DNA from: a virus | Taxonomy: Duplodnaviria; Heunggongvirae; Uroviricota; Caudoviricetes | Strand: one strand, 5' to 3' | Virus record (IMG/VR): IMGVR_UViG_2859805564_000001 | DNA length: 64,000 nt | Shown: positions 48,001-54,000 of the stretch, piece after piece | Position numbering within the stretch: position 1 is the stretch's first letter | How the letters are laid out: each line of letters starts with the position of its first letter | Program-made: the position numbers

Positions 48001-51000
48001 CCACAAAACCGCTGAATTTTAAGGTGACTGGAGGATTTGGCTCAGTTCTTCTGGAATGGGATATGCCAAATTATCGGGGACACTCACTGACTGAAATCTG
48101 GCGGGGTACGGAAGATGACCTTGCGGATGCGGTACTGGTTGCCACGACGCCGGGGCAGGTTTACGGCGATCCGGTTGACCCTGGCTGGTCGGGATTTTAC
48201 TGGATACGTTTTGTTAACGCGGCAGGAGTGAAAGGTCCATGGAATGGTGAAAAAGGCACACAGGCACAAACACAGATCGGTGTGAAGGCCATCATTGACC
48301 AGATCCGCGATGAGGCTGCAAAGTCGCCGGTTGTGTCCGAGTTGCGTAAAGAAATAAAAAACGCGCAGGGGCAGGCTGTAAAGGATGCTGCAATTAAGAC
48401 AACCGAAGTTGTAGGGACTCTCAGGGAAGAAACGACAAGAACGATTGGTGGTATTGAAACCCGCATTAGCACACTGGATTCGTCAACCAGTGAATCGCTT
48501 AATGAGGTCGACAAGCGTATCACTAAACTGGATAAAGAAGGCGGTGAAGCTTTTCTTGCGATGTGGTCAAAAAAAGCGGGGGTTGATGGTATCACTGCGG
48601 GGATCGGGATTGTCGCCGGAAAAGACGGTGAAGGCAGGCCTGTAAGTCAGGTTGCAATTTCTGCGTCGCAGTTGTTTGTCTTTGACCCGAATAATCCGGA
48701 TAACACAGCCTATCCGTTTGCGGTATCAGGTGGCAAGGTAGTGATCCCGAAAGCGATGATTTATGACGCGGTGATTGAAACACTGGTGTCGCGGAAGGTT
48801 GTGGCGGATGAGGTAAAAGCCGGGGTAAGTATCACTTCGCCAGTTATCCGGAGTGCCGTTATTCAGAACGGAAACTTTCAGGTTGATTCTCAGGGTAACC
48901 TGAATATTGGAGGCCTTTTCAGTGTTACGTCACAAGGGCAACTGACAATTCGTTACTCTAATCAGAATGTAGGACTGGTGATCCGCAATGATAAAATTGA
49001 GGTTTATGATCAGAATGGACGACTGGCTGTTCGCATAGGCAGATTACGCTGATCAGGAGGTGAGTATTGGAATACGGTTTTGCCATTTATAACAGAAATA
49101 ACGTTAATGTTACGGGCGTGCTGACTCCGGTATTTTTCCTGGACAGATTTACAGCGGAGTCTGGCTCAAAGACGTACACGAATAAACCCGACGGGAAATC
49201 ATTGCAGGCTGTATGTTGTTTATTTCCCTGGAATAATGTATTTGCGGATCGGAAAGTACCGAAGATAACCATTAATGGCAATACGGTGACGTGGTCGAAT
49301 CTTGAGCAGGGTATGGGATCTTATATTTATACATTCTGGGGATAAGTGTCATGTATGGTTTGAGCATTATGAAGCCGGATGGCAGCGTATGGATAAGTCC
49401 AGGTTTTACGCCGCAGTGTCTGATCAACAAAGGCACCATACCGGCGACTGAAAAGTCTTTTTTTAAAACATCAATCCCGTCAGGCAAAAGTTGTTTTTTC
49501 TTTATCAGAACAGAGAAGAAGGCCGATGTCATGTACACGCATGAACAGATTGATGGATATCATGCACTAAGGCTTCATGTAATTGTCAGGGGAACGAACC
49601 CTGGTGTTACGACGGTTTATGCTTTCGCGAATATGGTTACTCCACCTTCTGAGTATGGTATCGCCATGTATAACCCGGACGGTGAGATGATTTATCATGG
49701 CGAAATGATGCTGCTTGACGCGAAGTTAATACCTGTTGATATCAAATTTGAAAAGGACCTTGGATATCCATGCGCAATCATGCCTGCACTGGTCGGGTAT
49801 TATAACTGGAAAAGAACTCCTTATGATCGACCGATTTATACCACATCCACTGGTGCTACAGGAAATAAAATATATTCCTGTGAGCATTATTCCGGCGGTG
49901 CAACATGGGATATTCGAAAGCCGTATATAGATAAGGTCCTAGTTATTAATACATCAGTATATGATTAGTTGAAGCGAGTCTTTAATATTCATTTAAAATG
50001 TCTAAAAAGATGTATTATTAAAAAGTTTAGCGTGTTATCTGAATACAGGATATCTTAAATGAAGAGTATAGCAACACTGGTTGTGTGTGCAATCTCCGGG
50101 ATTGCCTGTGTAAATTTATCTGCACATGCAGCAGAAGGAAACCATACAATTTCTCTGGGGTATGCGCACTTTCAGTTTCCGGGACTGAAGGATTTTGTAA
50201 AGGATGCGACTGCTCATAACAGGGAGACTTTCAGTCATTTCGTCAACAGAAACTACTTTTCTTCATTGGGCGAATATACAGATGGTCGGGTCAGTGGATA
50301 TGAAGGCAAGGATAAAAATCCACAGGGCATTAATATCAGGTATCGCTACGAGATAACGGATGATTTTGGCGTTATCACCTCTTTTACATGGACGCGTTCT
50401 CTCACTAACTCACAGACATTTATTGATGTGCAGTCAGCCGATCATACCAGGAAGATTAAGAATCCGGCAGCTTCTGCCAGAACGGATATCAGGGCGAATT
50501 ACTGGAGTCTGTTAGCGGGGCCTTCATGGCGGGTTAATCAGTACATGAGCTTATATGCGATGGCAGGGATGGGCGTTGCTAAAGTTAGCGCTGACCTGAA
50601 AATTAAGGACAATATTAACAGTAGTGGCGGATTTTCTGAAAGCAACAGCACGAAAAAAAACTCCCTTGCGTGGGCTGCAGGTGCACAGTTTAACCTGAAT
50701 GAGAGTGTTACACTGGATGTGGCTTACGAAGGTTCCGGCTCTGGCGACTGGCGCACGAGTGGAATTACTGCTGGCATTGGCCTGAAATTCTAACCTGTAT
50801 CCGGTAACCGTTTACTACCCGCTGTGATGGCGGGTTTTTTATTGCCCGTACAGGGCAAAAACCGTAAATTATGCGTGGGTGCCTTTCGGCTGATGGCTGG
50901 AGGGTGAACCTGAAGGCCTGATGTGGAAAGGCCCCGAGTCAACTTAACGTTAACCCGAGGCCCTAACACTTCGTACCTTGACAAGTAGAAGGTTAGCGCC

Positions 51001-54000
51001 TCTCCACTCAGGAGGCAAGCGCTATGTCGCAAAAATCGCTTATCACCGTCACAATTTGTATGACGGTTATCTTCACTATCTGGATGTTGCACGGTTCGCT
51101 GTGTGAGTTCCGGCTGAATTTGTGGGGAGCGGAGTTTGCGGCGTTCTTACAGTGTAAGCAGTAGGAAAACCGCGACGGGGACGAAAGTCCCCGTCAACTG
51201 GTTGCTGAGGTTCAGCCGATATGGCACCCGTTTCAGGTGAGAGAATGAACGATAAAATTCTCCGGTATATGCAGCGTGTGGTGAGAAATTCCCGCAACCC
51301 TGAATTTATGAATGAAGTTAAAGACGCCTGCCTTAAAAAGCAGGCGTTTTGTTTTGAGGCACCTGATGGCTTTCTGGTGCTGCGTTCTGTGCTCAGTGCT
51401 GATGGTATCCCTTATGTTCTGGTGTTGCTGGGCGTGTGTACGGGGAGTAACAGCGTTGAGCGTTATCTGCCGGAGGTGAAGACATTAACCCGTCTGGCTG
51501 GCGGACGTTGGGCTGAATTTCATACGGCAAGGCGGGGATTTATCCGGCTGGGAAAACGTCTGGGCTTTGAGCGAATGCCGGATGATGAGGATGGCTTCAT
51601 GGTGTTCAGGATAGCGGTCTGACTGCCACAGTTTTCATCATCGTGTTTAAACCAACATTGCAATTCACATTCTGACCCTGCTCCGGCAGGGTTTTTTTAT
51701 TATCCAGGGGGGCCATAATGGGCGGAAAAAAAGGCGGTGGTGATACCAAAGTAAAACCAACAGCAGCGCAAATAGCACAGGAAGAAGTGGCCTGGAAAGG
51801 GTGGCAGGATTATCAAAAAATCCTCCGCCCGGCTGAAGATAACTTCATGGAAAAGGTCGATGACCTGAACAGTGAGCAGCAGTACGACAATATTGCTGGC
51901 ACCACAAATCTGGGGTATCAGAAACAGTTTGGCGAAGCACGGAAGGAACTGGCGGGTAATCTTGCTCAGTCCGGTGTTGACCCGTCCAGTGGTCGCTTTA
52001 ACGCGGTAATGAATGCGAACCAGAGTGATCAGGTAACCGGGCAGATTGACACAACCACACGGGGGCAGGTATCGCAGGCAGATAAGTATGTTGCCGGGCT
52101 ACAGGATGTTGCAGCTCTCGGTTCAGGTCAGAAGGCGGATGCGTTACAGAGTTTTAACTCGCTGGCAGACAGCAGTCTGGCAAAAGCTAAATCGGACGCA
52201 CAGGCTGCGTTTACGAAACAGCAGGGGCGAGCCTCTCTTGTTGGCGCTGGTTTGGGTGCGGTAGGTGCATATGCGATGCATAAGGCTGGTGGTAGCGGAG
52301 GAAGTGGCGGTGCTAAAACACCGGGCACCGGCGCTAATGCCATTCAGCATCAGGCTCAGAACTGGAGACTGTGATTATGGAGTACGGTAAATACGAAACA
52401 CTTGCGAGATACGGTTATACCGGAGCTGCCCGTCCACAGGGTGACTGGCAGACGTCAGCAGCGCTGACACGCCAACAATACGACGACTGGCGAACCAGAT
52501 ATTTGCCCCGCGTGGCAAGGCTGGCTGACCTTGGCGAGAACAACAGCCTGATGAATGCACAGCTTGCCCGGGTGGGCGGCCTTGCCACTTCCAGTCTCCG
52601 TACAGCGCAGATGGCGCAGGATAACCAGATGGCGAGATACGGGGTAAGCCGCCCGGATAATCCCGACAGTAATACGCTGGGGTTACGTAATGCCCTGGCA
52701 ATTGCTGGCGCGAAAAATGGTATCCGTGAAGCCGAACAGGATCGCCAGATGAACATACTGACGGGGGCTTCTGCACCGGCAAGACAGAAACTGAGTGTTG
52801 GCGGACAACTGGTGGCAGCGTAAGGAGGAAATATGGGGTACGGCTTACTGGATATTGCGAATCAGTCACGGCGTGAGGCATTACAGGGAATAAGTGACGC
52901 AGACCGACGACGTGAAGAAATTGAGGCTGCGAACAAACAGATGGCGGCGCAACAGAAAGCGCAGAACAAGCAGAATATCGGTACGGGCATTGGTACGGGG
53001 GCGGCTATTGGCGCATCCGTTGGTGGTCCTGTTGGTGCTGTTGCTGGAGCAGTAATTGGCGGCATTGCTGGTTCTTTGTTTTAAGGAGTGGTGAATGAGC
53101 GGATTTGCACAGGGGTTACTTGCCGGATTCAGCACGGTTGACCAGGCAATGACCCGTCGTAAGGAGCTTGGTCTGCGTGAAGCACAGCTTGCCCGGCAAC
53201 AGAAAAATAACGAGCGCGATTTTGAGTTTGCGCAGTCTCAGTTTGAACATAATAAAAACGTTGATCAGCGGAACTTTGATTACAGAGCCAAAGTTGACGA
53301 CCGTAATTATGCACTGAAGGAAAGGGAGTTTAACGCTAACCAGAATTACCGGAATGCGTCGCTGGGTATGGAGCAGCAGCGACTCCGGATGCAGAAATAC
53401 AACCAGCGACGGCTTGAGTATAACGATATGCTGGCGCGCGATCAGCCTGTGATGGCGGCGCTTGGAAAGGCTGTGGATGCTGGCGATCGGGATGCAGCAA
53501 TGCGTCTTTACGGCCAGTTGTCAGAGGGTAATCCGCTGAGGCTGATGGCGAATGATGGCTATGTAGCGAAAGCGGGTCAGGCCGTGAACAACCTGCAAAA
53601 AATCTTTGATGACAAGCCAGACAGGGCTATCGCTTCACTTAATACGCCGGAGAATCTTGATGTCCTTTCCGGGGTGTTTGGCCCGGAACTGCAACAGCGT
53701 ATTGGCATGCCCGATTCAACCGGGAAAAAGACGATAAAAGAGGCCAGGATTGGCAGTATAGTACCGGCACAGCAGGAAGGGTACATACTTATCGGCCTTG
53801 ATCTCACATACAGTGATGGCTCTACAGCACATAAACCTGTAACAGAATACGGCAGTGCGCACCCTGATGATCAAACCGTGCTGGCGATACCCGTTGATAA
53901 GGCTATCGCTCAGGTCAGGGATCGCAGCAAATTTGCAGAGATATCGAAAAATTATGGTTATTTTATGCCGAAGCAGCAGGGACTTTCTCTGAAAGAGCTT

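What the first reader, a model, noticed from the sequence alone, without database searches (positions are those of the whole stretch)
50841..51200. Unannotated Hok-like type I toxin ORF with long structured leader, downstream of lom
Between the lom terminator and the next gene there is a 46-codon ORF (51023-51163) with a GGAGG RBS. Its product MSQKSLITVTICMTVIFTIWMLHGSLCEFRLNLWGAEFAAFLQCKQ has the hydrophobic N-terminus plus SLCE.R...G..E.AAF signature of Hok/Gef toxins. It has a 180-nt leader, an internal 10-bp inverted repeat (51042-51070) and a very stable 3' hairpin with GNRA loop (51173-51194), as expected for heavily folded hok-type mRNAs. I could not locate a convincing antisense (Sok-like) RNA promoter or terminator, so the antitoxin arrangement is unresolved and may be atypical.
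Basis: partly seen in the sequence, partly recalled or inferred. Interest (0 to 1): 0.6.

Follow-up and report, generated by a model that had tools for sequence, protein, structure and literature searches.

The report
Hok/Sok-type toxin–antitoxin cassette beside lom
The small ORF after lom in this Shiga-toxin phage is a real, already catalogued Hok-family membrane toxin in a hok/sok-type cassette, and its "missing" antisense antitoxin RNA is almost certainly the transcript published as the precursor of the phage "microRNA" 24B_1.

Summary
A 46-codon ORF (51024-51164) with a GGAGG ribosome-binding site passes Pfam's Hok/Gef cut-off.

The window is a 933W/Ss-VASD-type Stx phage. Several public records already annotate this ORF as a Hok/Gef or small toxic protein. 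The identical peptide is construct 72_1589 in a 2025-26 preprint, where it counts as toxic by elimination.

The locus is a portable cassette of about 390 nt (50842-51229). It has:
- its own promoter and a 147-nt leader;
- a conserved pairing between the 5' and 3' ends (tac/fbi), with alternative tac/ucb and SD-box/dcb pairings;
- a ribosome-binding site held in a hairpin;
- a stable 3' hairpin.

The antitoxin is conventional. An antisense promoter (TTGCCT-17-TAACCT) starts at G50982, in register with K-12 sokB. It is the published "p24B_1" promoter of phage Φ24B. The 20-nt "microRNA-size" 24B_1 maps exactly to 50952-50933(-), the tip of the Sok-like hairpin. The 24B_1 papers I searched never mention hok.

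One real departure from plasmid R1 is that no mok leader ORF is conserved.

The toxin is already known. The link to 24B_1 appears unrecognised and calls for re-reading those papers.

The parts
50817..50841 (+). lom intrinsic terminator (ACCCGC-TGTGATG-GCGGGT followed by a T run); left border of the cassette
   Evidence: Terminator scan and sequence. Homology with cassettes in other genomic contexts begins just after it.
50842..50870 (+). Promoter of the hok-like mRNA: -35 TTGCCC (50842-50847), 17-nt spacer, -10 TAAATT (50865-50870)
   Evidence: Both hexamers are conserved in cassettes found in unrelated contexts (ATTGCC ... TAGATT/TACATT). The -10 aligns with the -10 of K-12 hokC, hokB and the R1-type locus. 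It scores only 8 of 12 against the consensus and the consensus scan does not report it. Inferred by homology.
50877..51229 (+). hok-like mRNA core, from +1 (GGGUGCC) to the end of the fbi box (GGCACCC). The true 3' end is unknown; see the candidate terminator 51321-51350.
   Evidence: The Rfam sok model RF01794 is built in the mRNA sense and matches 50877-51035 from its first position. Homology among 12 loci stops exactly at GGCACCC. Minimum free energy is -151 kcal/mol, z = -5.99.
50877..50893 (+). tac element (GGGUGCC UUU CGGCUGA), the 5' partner of fbi. In the truncated RNA, 50877-50887 pairs with ucb instead.
   Evidence: Helix 1 is invariant. Helix 2 is 79% paired, with 3 pairs changed on both sides.
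51212..51229 (+). fbi element (UCAGCCG AUAU GGCACCC), the 3' partner of tac. It overlaps the alternative ATG at 51221 of the next ORF.
   Evidence: The pairing persists in a 480-nt transcript model.
50926..50935 (+). ucb box (GAAAGGCCCC). In the full-length fold its 3' half (50930-50935) pairs with the GAGG box; in the truncated fold the whole box pairs with tac.
   Evidence: Inverted repeat I2; folds.
50957..50967 (+). GAGGCCCUAAC, homologous to the mok SD box of R1, hokB and hokC. It pairs with ucb in the full-length fold and with dcb in the truncated fold. No start codon follows it.
   Evidence: Alignment with R1, hokB and hokC; folds; frame analysis.
50991..51002 (+). dcb box (GGUUAGCGCCUC), part of the conserved block AGGTTAGCGCCTC (one change, in L018). 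Its 3' end overlaps the anti-SD stretch CUCUCC (51000-51005).
   Evidence: Conserved columns; folds.
50922..50982 (-). Sok-like antitoxin RNA: start at G50982, an 18-nt single-stranded 5' tail, a 16-bp hairpin (50964-50928), then UUUCC. The published "24B_1 precursor" is the 81-nt version, 50982-50902.
   Evidence: Fold: -26.5 kcal/mol, z = -4.05. It is homologous to annotated SokC and SokB in sequence, and its 5' end lies 42 nt upstream of the hok ATG against 49 and 48 nt. The Φ24B primers for the 80-nt transcript bracket the same stretch. The 3' end has not been mapped.
50990..51018 (-). Sok-like promoter: -35 TTGCCT (reverse complement of 51013-51018, overlapping the hok SD), 17-nt spacer, -10 TAACCT (reverse complement of 50990-50995)
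   Evidence: The -10 is invariant in all 12 loci. It is in register with K-12 sokB, which reads TTGCCG-17-TAAGAT-7-G. It matches the published p24B_1 boxes, -10 CGCTAACCT and -35 TTGACT (PMC4426718).
50933..50952 (-). Exact match to the 20-nt "microRNA-size" 24B_1 (UAACGUUAAGUUGACUCGGG), which is the apical part of the Sok-like hairpin
   Evidence: The paper gives Φ24B residues 45711-45692. The sequence was read from HM208303. There is a single exact match in the window.
51011..51015 (+). hok Shine-Dalgarno GGAGG, paired with 51001-51005 inside the hairpin 50994-51024 in the full-length fold
   Evidence: Probability of being unpaired is at most 0.07 in the full-length RNA (computed for 51012-51015).
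51024..51164 (+). Hok-family toxin gene, 46 aa: MSQKSLITVTICMTVIFTIWMLHGSLCEFRLNLWGAEFAAFLQCKQ
   Evidence: The identical peptide is construct 72_1589 of the preprint's toxicity panel.
50978..51106 (+). mok-like frame with a TTG start and no SD. It is not conserved and is probably not a functional mok.
   Evidence: A canonical start in any frame between the GAGG box and the hok SD is present in only 4 of 12 loci, and in differing frames (the -46/-47 TTG of this ORF in 3, a GTG at -28 in L018). 933W, 97% identical, has none. The R1-type control has its ATG at -58.
51174..51195 (+). 3' hairpin, 9 bp with a GAAA loop, between the stop codon and fbi
   Evidence: Helix 18 is 99% paired, with 4 pairs carrying compensatory changes.
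51321..51350 (+). Candidate intrinsic terminator for the full-length mRNA, lying inside the next gene (51245-51622, phrog_610)
   Evidence: Unlike other contexts, no terminator follows fbi directly here. Assignment is speculative.

Best explanation
Window 50842-51229 is a self-contained hok/sok-type type I toxin-antitoxin cassette inserted as a moron between lom and the next late-region gene of an Stx phage.

**Proposed mechanism (inferred unless marked otherwise).**
1. A weak constitutive promoter makes an mRNA that starts at G50877.
2. In the full-length RNA the 5' end (tac) pairs with the 3' fbi box. The ucb box pairs with a GAGG box, and the toxin's ribosome-binding site and AUG sit in a two-tier hairpin. 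The RNA is therefore stable but not translated.
3. Removing the 3' end frees tac. Tac captures ucb, and the GAGG box re-pairs with the dcb box, which overlaps the anti-SD stretch. This dismantles the lower tier of the SD hairpin and makes the 46-aa toxin translatable.
4. The divergent antisense promoter overlaps the toxin SD. It makes a Sok-like RNA of about 60 nt (an 18-nt tail plus a 16-bp hairpin) complementary to 50922-50982 of the leader.
5. Binding to the activated mRNA is predicted to release dcb, re-close the SD hairpin, and create an RNase III substrate.
6. The toxin is a single-pass inner-membrane peptide that collapses membrane potential.

**Shown here:** family membership of the peptide; conservation and covariation of the mRNA fold; conservation of both promoters; positional and sequence homology of the antisense gene to sokB and sokC.

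**Taken from the literature:** the identical peptide counts as toxic by elimination in the preprint; the antisense transcript was reported, and its precursor binds Hfq, in Φ24B.

**Inferred only:** 3' processing, the switch itself, RNase III involvement, and mok-independent activation (about 40% confidence for the last).

The transcript published as the "24B_1 precursor" is this Sok-like RNA. The 20-nt 24B_1 is a fragment of its hairpin.
For: **Toxin.**
- Pfam HOK_GEF above its cut-off and PHROG 251.
- 56 homologous protein clusters; every one that carries a source name is called a Hok/Gef family protein, and most full-length ones are 46 aa.
- Conserved residues C12, T14, L26, C27, E28 and E37 match the family-wide conserved set reported in the preprint.
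- dN/dS is 0.2-0.45.
- The identical peptide, 72_1589, was in a panel where 42 of 45 homologues were toxic. It is not among the three named non-toxic ones.

**mRNA architecture.**
- The Rfam sok/hok-leader model matches 50877-51035 end to end, E = 1.8e-6.
- The cassette is conserved from the -35 box to GGCACCC in P2-like prophages, a chromosomal site and IncI1/IncHI2 plasmids.
- The minimum-energy fold closes tac with fbi, z = -5.99, and still does so in a 480-nt transcript.
- 88.3% of pair cells are kept against 39-44% in slid controls, and 20 pairs carry changes on both sides.
- The truncated RNA forms the tac/ucb and GAGG/dcb stems. Blocking the Sok target restores the SD hairpin.

**Antitoxin.**
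- The -10 TAACCT is invariant, and the promoter is in register with K-12 sokB.
- The hairpin is homologous to those of SokC and SokB.
- The published p24B_1 boxes, the 80-nt transcript primers and the 20-mer all map onto this element.
- The precursor binds Hfq with Kd 25 nM (PMC10732415). The antitoxic activity of SokW in the same phage group partly requires Hfq (PMC8621323).
Against: - The Rfam match is below the gathering score: 37.9 against 59 bits.
- The NCBIfam HokA and Hok models are far below their cut-offs: 38.4 against 89 and 22.7 against 73.
- Both promoters are weak by consensus and the scan reports none.
- In the thermodynamic ensemble the SD stays mostly paired after truncation. 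The probability of being unpaired is at most 0.17, so the activation step is only weakly supported by prediction.
- No terminator follows fbi. The nearest lies about 100 nt downstream, inside the next gene.
- Toxicity from the native locus, the transcript ends and Sok-dependent repression have not been measured for this locus.
- The RT-PCR that detected the 80-nt transcript was not shown to be strand-specific in the text I read.
- The preprint's toxicity result for this peptide is inferred by elimination from its text, not read from a figure.
Confidence: 0.85

Rival explanations
1. The published reading. The antisense transcript is the precursor of a trans-acting, microRNA-like 20-nt RNA (24B_1). 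It regulates d_ant and sdhB and promotes lysogeny, independently of any toxin gene.
For: - 2223 reads of a single 20-nt species were reported.
- A 189-nt deletion changes lysogenisation, induction and phage gene expression.
- The synthetic 20-mer bound sdhB mRNA weakly in vitro, with under 10% bound at 100 nM.
- Cells carrying the plasmid had lower ATP.
Against: - The transcript is fully complementary to the leader of an intact, conserved Hok-family gene. It shares promoter register, position and hairpin with SokB and SokC.
- The 189-nt deletion (window 50826-51013) also removes the 3' arm of the lom terminator, the hok promoter, the whole leader and part of the SD.
- The primers listed for the "overproduction" plasmid match the window at 50714-50733 and 51258-51277. 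They would amplify a 564-bp insert holding the whole cassette, toxin gene included.
- The same antisense gene is conserved in cassettes in P2-like prophages and plasmids, which have no d_ant context.
- None of these papers considers hok.
- A trans function could still coexist with the cis function.
Confidence: 0.08
2. The cassette is an evolutionary relic. It is a transcriptionally or translationally dead hok locus, like several K-12 chromosomal hok loci, and has no current function in the phage.
For: - Both promoters are weak.
- It lacks mok, which R1 requires.
- It has no dedicated terminator.
- K-12 hokA is disrupted by IS150.
- A decayed hokW-like remnant lies elsewhere in this same window.
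- One homologue, L009, is clearly a pseudogene.
Against: - The ORF is intact in all 12 compared loci.
- dN/dS is 0.2-0.45, and there are 3 synonymous and 0 nonsynonymous changes against 933W.
- RNA helices are kept by compensatory changes.
- Both promoters are conserved across unrelated contexts.
- An antisense transcript was reported in Φ24B.
- The peptide counts as toxic in the preprint.
- The cassette is present in 198 phage records.
Confidence: 0.07
3. Regulation is canonical and mok-dependent. A leader ORF starts at TTG 50978, or at a non-canonical codon in relatives, is blocked by the Sok-like RNA, and is translationally coupled to the toxin as in R1.
For: - The window has an open frame 50978-51106 in the same frame relation to hok as R1 mok.
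- The Sok-like RNA overlaps TTG 50978 at its 5' end.
- The GAGG box is homologous to the mok SD.
Against: - The TTG lies 17 nt from GAGG, too far for that box to serve as its SD.
- It is absent from 933W and Φ24B, which are 97% identical, and from 8 of the 11 other loci. One of the three loci that have it (L017) has it in a different frame.
- No start codon occupies the position of the mok ATG of R1, hokB or hokC.
- Stop codons interrupt the frame in several loci.
Confidence: 0.12

Closest known systems
hok/sok (parB) of plasmid R1 and the K-12 chromosomal hokB/sokB and hokC/sokC loci
   Same: - Toxin of the Pfam Hok/Gef family.
- The mRNA begins GGGUGC and has a long leader.
- tac/fbi closure between the 5' and 3' ends, and ucb / SD-box / dcb alternative pairings.
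- The SD is sequestered and a 3' hairpin follows the stop codon.
- A divergent antisense RNA has its -35 box over the hok SD, a 5' end 42-49 nt upstream of the hok ATG, and a homologous terminator hairpin.

(element definitions from PMC9841398.)
   Different: - The peptide is 46 aa rather than 49-52 aa, and only 14 of 52 aligned positions are identical to R1 Hok.
- No mok start codon or conserved mok frame.
- It falls below the Rfam gathering score and the NCBIfam cut-offs.
- No terminator follows fbi directly in the phage context.
K-12 HokA (NCBIfam NF007290), the nearest named Hok
   Same: It is the best NCBIfam match. Of 50 aligned positions, 21 are identical, including MxQK, WM, SLCE and ELAAFL.C.
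   Different: The score of 38.4 is far below the equivalog cut-off of 89. K-12 hokA/sokA is disrupted by IS150, whereas this cassette is intact.
hokW-sokW of Sakai prophage 5 / 933W (Takada et al. 2021, PMC8621323)
   Same: It is also a hok/sok-type type I toxin-antitoxin system in the same group of Stx phages. Its antisense RNA partly requires Hfq and RNase III, and it has a demonstrated role after prophage induction.
   Different: - It is a different locus and a different Hok subfamily: HokW is 51 aa, MKQQKAM..., of the HokD type.
- Its deletion primer is absent from this window. Only a frameshifted, internally deleted remnant lies at 62877-62993(-).
- That paper does not mention the lom-adjacent cassette, which is also present in Sp5 at 97% identity.
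24B_1 "microRNA-size" RNA of phage Φ24B (Nejman-Falenczyk et al. 2015, PMC4426718; Bloch et al. 2023, PMC10732415)
   Same: It is physically the same element. The promoter boxes, the 80/81-nt precursor and the 20-mer all map onto the Sok-like gene. The 20-mer matches the window exactly.
   Different: It is interpreted there as a trans-acting, microRNA-like regulator. The overlapping Hok-family gene and the cis-antisense relationship are not mentioned.
Cluster 72 of the Hok catalogue (Escalera-Maurer et al., bioRxiv 10.1101/2025.08.07.668861)
   Same: The identical peptide is listed as 72_1589 in a high-abundance cluster, and the P2-associated relative as 72_1621. Both were in the toxicity panel.
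   Different: That study treats coding sequences only. It explicitly leaves Mok, Sok and the mRNA structure unanalysed.

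Membership tests
Hok/Gef toxin family (Pfam PF01848) | Profile match at or above the curated gathering score | tested here: met
   33.2 bits against a cut-off of 22, E = 4e-8, covering residues 8-44.
Hok/Gef toxin family (Pfam PF01848) | Peptide of about 50 aa with an N-terminal transmembrane helix and the family-wide conserved residues (C16, T18, L30, C31, E32, E41 in R1 numbering) | tested here: met
   C12, T14, L26, C27, E28 and E37 are present in the window peptide and conserved in most of the 30 subfamily members. 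The conserved set is taken from the preprint. The peptide is 46 aa, at the short end of the range.
Hok/Gef toxin family (Pfam PF01848) | Toxic to E. coli when expressed | not testable with these tools
   From the literature only. The identical peptide (72_1589) was in a panel where 42 of 45 homologues were toxic, and it is not among the three named exceptions. This is a preprint, and the result is inferred by elimination.
NCBIfam HokA equivalog (NF007290) / Hok family subfamily (NF007279) | Score at or above the curated cut-off | tested here: not met
   38.4 against 89 and 22.7 against 73. It is therefore not HokA and not an R1-type Hok, but a separate 46-aa subfamily.
[quoted passage not shown] | Long-range 5'-3' pairing (tac/fbi) that closes the full-length mRNA | tested here: met
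   The minimum-energy fold pairs 50877-50893 with 51212-51229. The first helix is invariant. The second is 79% paired, with 3 pairs changed on both sides. Homology among loci ends exactly at fbi.
[quoted passage not shown] | Alternative tac/ucb and SD-box/dcb pairings in the 3'-truncated mRNA | tested here: met
   Predicted for the 5' fragments and for the RNA truncated at 51200. The boxes are conserved, and where they change, G-U pairs or the mismatch position absorb the change. This is prediction only.
[quoted passage not shown] | Cis-antisense Sok RNA made from a promoter overlapping the hok SD and complementary to the leader | tested here: met
   The promoter register and hairpin are homologous to annotated sokB and sokC. 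The -10 is invariant in 12 loci. A transcript was reported in Φ24B. The ends have not been mapped for this phage.
[quoted passage not shown] | mok leader ORF overlapping hok and translationally coupled to it | tested here: not met
   No canonical start is conserved. 933W and 7 other loci have none in any frame between the GAGG box and the hok SD, while the R1-type control shows its ATG at -58.
[quoted passage not shown] | Rfam RF01794 (sok / hok-leader covariance model) at the gathering score | tested here: not met
   37.9 bits against 59. The match is nevertheless full-length (model positions 1-157) with E = 1.8e-6. It is not listed at the gathering threshold.
[quoted passage not shown] | Slow 3' processing that activates the mRNA; RNase III cleavage of the Sok-mRNA duplex; antitoxin less stable than the toxin mRNA | not testable with these tools
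   Needs RNA half-life measurements, end mapping and an rnc mutant.

The most novel reading that the evidence does not exclude
[quoted passage not shown] On this reading it is a fragment of the Sok-type antitoxin of a mok-less hok cassette.

The phenotypes attributed to it would then be consequences of perturbing a membrane-toxin/antitoxin pair. Those phenotypes are lower ATP, a bias toward lysogeny and altered induction kinetics.

Two reagent details support this. The published deletion removes the toxin's promoter and leader and half of the lom terminator. The "overproduction" plasmid, by its listed primers, carries the whole cassette.

A corollary is that Hok translation in this subfamily is switched directly by mRNA refolding, without a Mok leader peptide.
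Probability: 0.45. Interest if true: 0.6.

Novelty: already known. Interest (0 to 1): 0.45.

Why it matters
The toxin gene itself is ordinary. Hok genes are common in E. coli prophages, and this one is already annotated and catalogued. Three points give the locus more weight.

1. **A published interpretation needs re-examination.** Three 24B_1 papers treat a small RNA from exactly this spot as a microRNA-like trans regulator of phage development and host metabolism. None notes that it is antisense to a Hok toxin leader. If it is a Sok-type antitoxin, the deletion and overexpression phenotypes need re-examining. The ATP drop in particular is what a leaky membrane toxin would be expected to cause.

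2. **Stx phages of this type can carry two hok loci.** These are hokW-sokW and this one. Single-locus deletions, such as the Sp5 ΔhokW-sokW study, were therefore done with a second Hok system present.

3. **The 46-aa subfamily appears to lack mok.** That makes it a natural test of whether Hok translation can be controlled by RNA refolding alone.

Tried and rejected
- **Rfam at gathering thresholds, whole window.** No sok/hok family is listed; only the permissive search finds the leader.
- **Sigma-70 consensus scan of 50700-51450.** It reports no promoter. Both promoters had to be placed by homology.
- **Is this the published hokW-sokW locus?** The hokW-sokW deletion primer has no match within 3 mismatches, and HokW is a different peptide. 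Rejected.
- **Is there a mok frame?** All three frames were examined in 12 loci plus an R1-type control. Nothing is conserved, and the in-frame N-terminal extension is closed by the TAG inside the conserved AGGTTAGCG block.
- **Is the 3' hairpin at 51174-51195 the mRNA terminator?** On the + strand no U run follows it. It scans as terminator-like only on the - strand. Homologues keep it, with fbi further downstream, so it is an internal structural hairpin.
- **Is the downstream ORF spurious, which would explain the terminator inside it?** It matches phrog_610 end to end. Rejected.
- **Genome-contig scan.** It returned only 7 loci. Several sit on contigs labelled with implausible organisms, probably contamination. 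I used them for sequence only.
- **24B_1 as an RNase III product of the hairpin alone.** The two ends (nt 31 and nt 50 of the Sok-like RNA) do not form the 2-nt staggered cut expected across one stem. How the 20-mer arises is left open.

Full report
**1. What is in the sequence**

The window matches Stx-converting phages. Window 50700-51400 is 100% identical to Shigella phage Ss-VASD and Escherichia phage P13771. It is about 97% identical to 933W, VT2-Sakai (Sp5) and Φ24B, and 198 phage records carry the stretch.

The upstream gene, 50059-50793, is an Ail/Lom outer-membrane protein. Its terminator lies at 50817-50835.

GGAGG lies at 51011-51015.

The internal inverted repeat (51042-51051 and 51061-51070) and the GAAA-loop hairpin (51174-51195) are both present.

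**2. The protein**

- It passes the Pfam Hok/Gef gathering score: 33.2 against 22 bits.
- It matches PHROG 251, "MokW-like host killing".
- It fails the narrower NCBIfam models. HokA is the nearest, at 38.4 against a cut-off of 89.
- It belongs to a well-populated 46-aa subfamily in E. coli, Shigella and Salmonella. The motifs GSLCE and GAEFAAFLQCKQ are nearly invariant.
- It is under purifying selection, with dN/dS 0.2-0.45.

**3. It is already known as a gene**

Several phage records and RefSeq E. coli genomes annotate it as "small toxic polypeptide", "prophage host toxic membrane protein", "Hok/Gef family protein" or "MokW-like host killing". The original 933W, Φ24B and Ss-VASD records do not annotate it.

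A 2025-26 preprint cataloguing Hok diversity lists the identical peptide as 72_1589, in a high-abundance cluster. It was among 45 homologues tested by arabinose induction. Of these, 42 were toxic, and the three exceptions named do not include it.

**4. The cassette and its mRNA**

I aligned the region with homologues from other contexts:
- downstream of ogr in P2-like prophages;
- next to a type-B L31 gene;
- on IncI1 and IncHI2 plasmids;
- in Salmonella, E. albertii and Citrobacter.

Conservation starts at a -35 box (50842) and ends exactly at GGCACCC (51223-51229).

The Rfam "sok" model is built in the mRNA sense. It matches 50877-51035 from its first to its last position, though below the gathering score. 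The transcript start GGGUGCC aligns with the 5' ends of the R1-type, hokB and hokC mRNAs.

The 353-nt RNA folds at -151 kcal/mol (z = -5.99). Its ends are paired: GGGUGCC/GGCACCC plus CGGCUGA/UCAGCCG. The same closure holds in a 480-nt model that ends at the next terminator.

Across 12 loci, 88% of pair cells are kept, against about 40% when the partners are slid. Twenty pairs carry changes on both sides, including pairs in the second tac/fbi helix and four in the 3' hairpin.

Without the 3' end the RNA refolds:
- The 5' end pairs with GAAAGGCCCC (ucb).
- The GAGG box, homologous to the mok SD box, pairs with GGUUAGCGCCUC (dcb). This dissolves the lower tier of the hairpin that holds the toxin's SD.

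These are the elements defined for R1 hok (PMC9841398). One caveat applies. In the computed ensemble the SD becomes only modestly more accessible.

**5. The antitoxin**

On the minus strand the sequence reads TTGCCT (over the toxin SD), 17 nt, TAACCT, 7 nt, then G50982.
- The -10 is invariant in all 12 loci.
- The arrangement is in register with K-12 sokB, which reads TTGCCG-17-TAAGAT-7-G.
- The annotated 5' ends of sokB and sokC lie 48 and 49 nt upstream of their hok ATG. Here the distance is 42 nt.
- The RNA has an 18-nt single-stranded tail and a 16-bp hairpin homologous to those of SokB and SokC.
- The tail and its target are the most variable part of the cassette. Divergence in pairing specificity would explain this; that reading is an inference.

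The arrangement is therefore typical.

**6. Link to the literature on 24B_1**

The 2015 paper on Φ24B describes a 20-nt "microRNA-size" RNA, 24B_1, encoded "in the lom-vb_24B_43 region". It gives:
- the position, residues 45711-45692;
- a predicted promoter with -10 CGCTAACCT and -35 TTGACT;
- an 80-nt precursor.

All three map onto the Sok-like gene:
- The promoter boxes are the Sok-like promoter.
- The precursor primers bracket window 50982-50902.
- The 20-mer has one exact match in the window, at 50952-50933(-). This is the apical part of the Sok-like hairpin.

The 2023 paper shows that Hfq binds the precursor with Kd 25 nM.

The words hok, Sok and toxin-antitoxin do not occur in the 2023 paper, and hok and toxin-antitoxin do not occur in the 2025 review. 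The 2015 paper does not mention hok. The 2017 mini-review mentions Hok/Sok only as an unrelated example.

Two practical consequences follow from the published reagents:
- The 189-nt deletion corresponds to window 50826-51013. It removes the 3' arm of the lom terminator, the toxin promoter, the entire leader and part of the SD, as well as the antisense gene.
- The primers given for pUC18_24B1 match the window at 50714-50733 and 51258-51277. That implies a 564-bp insert containing the whole cassette with the toxin gene. The 2023 paper nevertheless describes a 189-nt insert.

**7. What differs from canonical hok/sok**

No mok frame is conserved.
- At the position of the mok ATG of R1, hokB and hokC, this subfamily has no start codon.
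- The window's TTG 50978 lies 17 nt from GAGG.
- That TTG is absent from 933W and Φ24B and from most other relatives.

I therefore propose, at about 40% confidence, that the dcb/anti-SD overlap lets refolding control the toxin SD directly. On this model, binding of the Sok-like RNA re-closes the SD hairpin. Blocking 50925-50982 in the fold restores the full-length-type hairpin.

The phage context also lacks a terminator directly after fbi. The nearest lies at 51321-51350, inside the next gene.

**8. Relation to hokW-sokW**

The experimentally studied Stx-phage system, hokW-sokW of Sp5, is a different locus with a 51-aa HokD-type toxin. In this window it survives only as a frameshifted, internally deleted remnant at 62877-62993(-). 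The lom-adjacent cassette is also present in Sp5 and is not mentioned in that study.

**9. Verdict**

The toxin is already known, so the finding as stated is ordinary.

The added value lies in three things:
- the resolved anatomy of the cassette;
- the apparent lack of mok;
- the identity of the Sok-like RNA with the published 24B_1 precursor, which I did not find stated in the searchable literature and which is directly testable.

Noticed in passing
window 62877-62993 (-): A decayed hokW/HokD-like gene. Relative to the hokW start (ATGAAGCAGCAAAAGGCGATG) there is one extra A, and an internal deletion joins ...GACCTCTGC to the 3' hairpin region. No hok leader or sok is detected nearby. RefSeq Ss-VASD still labels it a Hok/Gef family protein.
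   Followed up: partly
window 51321-51350 (+), inside ORF 51245-51622: A strong intrinsic-terminator-like hairpin (ACGCCTGC...GCAGGCGT followed by TTTTGTTTTG) sits about 25 codons into a conserved phage gene of unknown function (phrog_610, equivalent to vb_24B_43 / L0129). It could be the 3' end of the full-length hok-like mRNA or an attenuator of the downstream gene.
   Followed up: partly
window 50839-50861 (+): An inverted repeat TTATTGCCC / GGGCAAAAA overlaps the -35 box and spacer of the hok-like promoter. It is specific to the Stx-phage copy of the cassette. Its role (operator, or second lom terminator hairpin) is unknown.
   Followed up: no
window 50714-50733 (+) and 51258-51277 (-): The primers published for plasmid pUC18_24B1 flank 564 bp that include the complete hok/sok-type cassette. 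A later paper describes the insert as a 189-nt region. This is a discrepancy in the literature and matters for interpreting the "24B_1 overproduction" phenotypes.
   Followed up: partly
window 27308-27521 (+), 16247-16334 (-), 16360-16435 (-), 5261-5346, 5796-5885 and 15328-15411 (-): Rfam hits at gathering score elsewhere in the window: STnc100, C4 antisense RNA, isrK, and three copies of sRNA-Xcc1.
   Followed up: no
window 54391-62811 (+): A single 2806-aa ORF. The equivalent gene in Ss-VASD is annotated as an LPD5 domain-containing protein. It ends just before the hokW remnant.
   Followed up: no
L012 (Xanthomonas pisi contig, 857 nt), L013 (Planococcaceae MAG), L015 (Vagococcus sp.): Contigs labelled as non-enterobacterial organisms carry this cassette. 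L012 is 100% identical at the protein level to the Stx-phage peptide. L013 and L015 resemble the P2-prophage copy. This is most likely assembly contamination, not horizontal transfer.
   Followed up: no
L004, L005, L007, L014, L015 (about 190 nt downstream of ogr); L008 (IncI1 plasmid); L006 (next to a type-B L31 gene): The same cassette of about 370 nt recurs at the end of P2-like prophages, on conjugative plasmids and at a chromosomal site, always bounded by its -35 box and the fbi box. In E. coli genomes that hold a match, up to 11 places matching the query are found per genome.
   Followed up: partly
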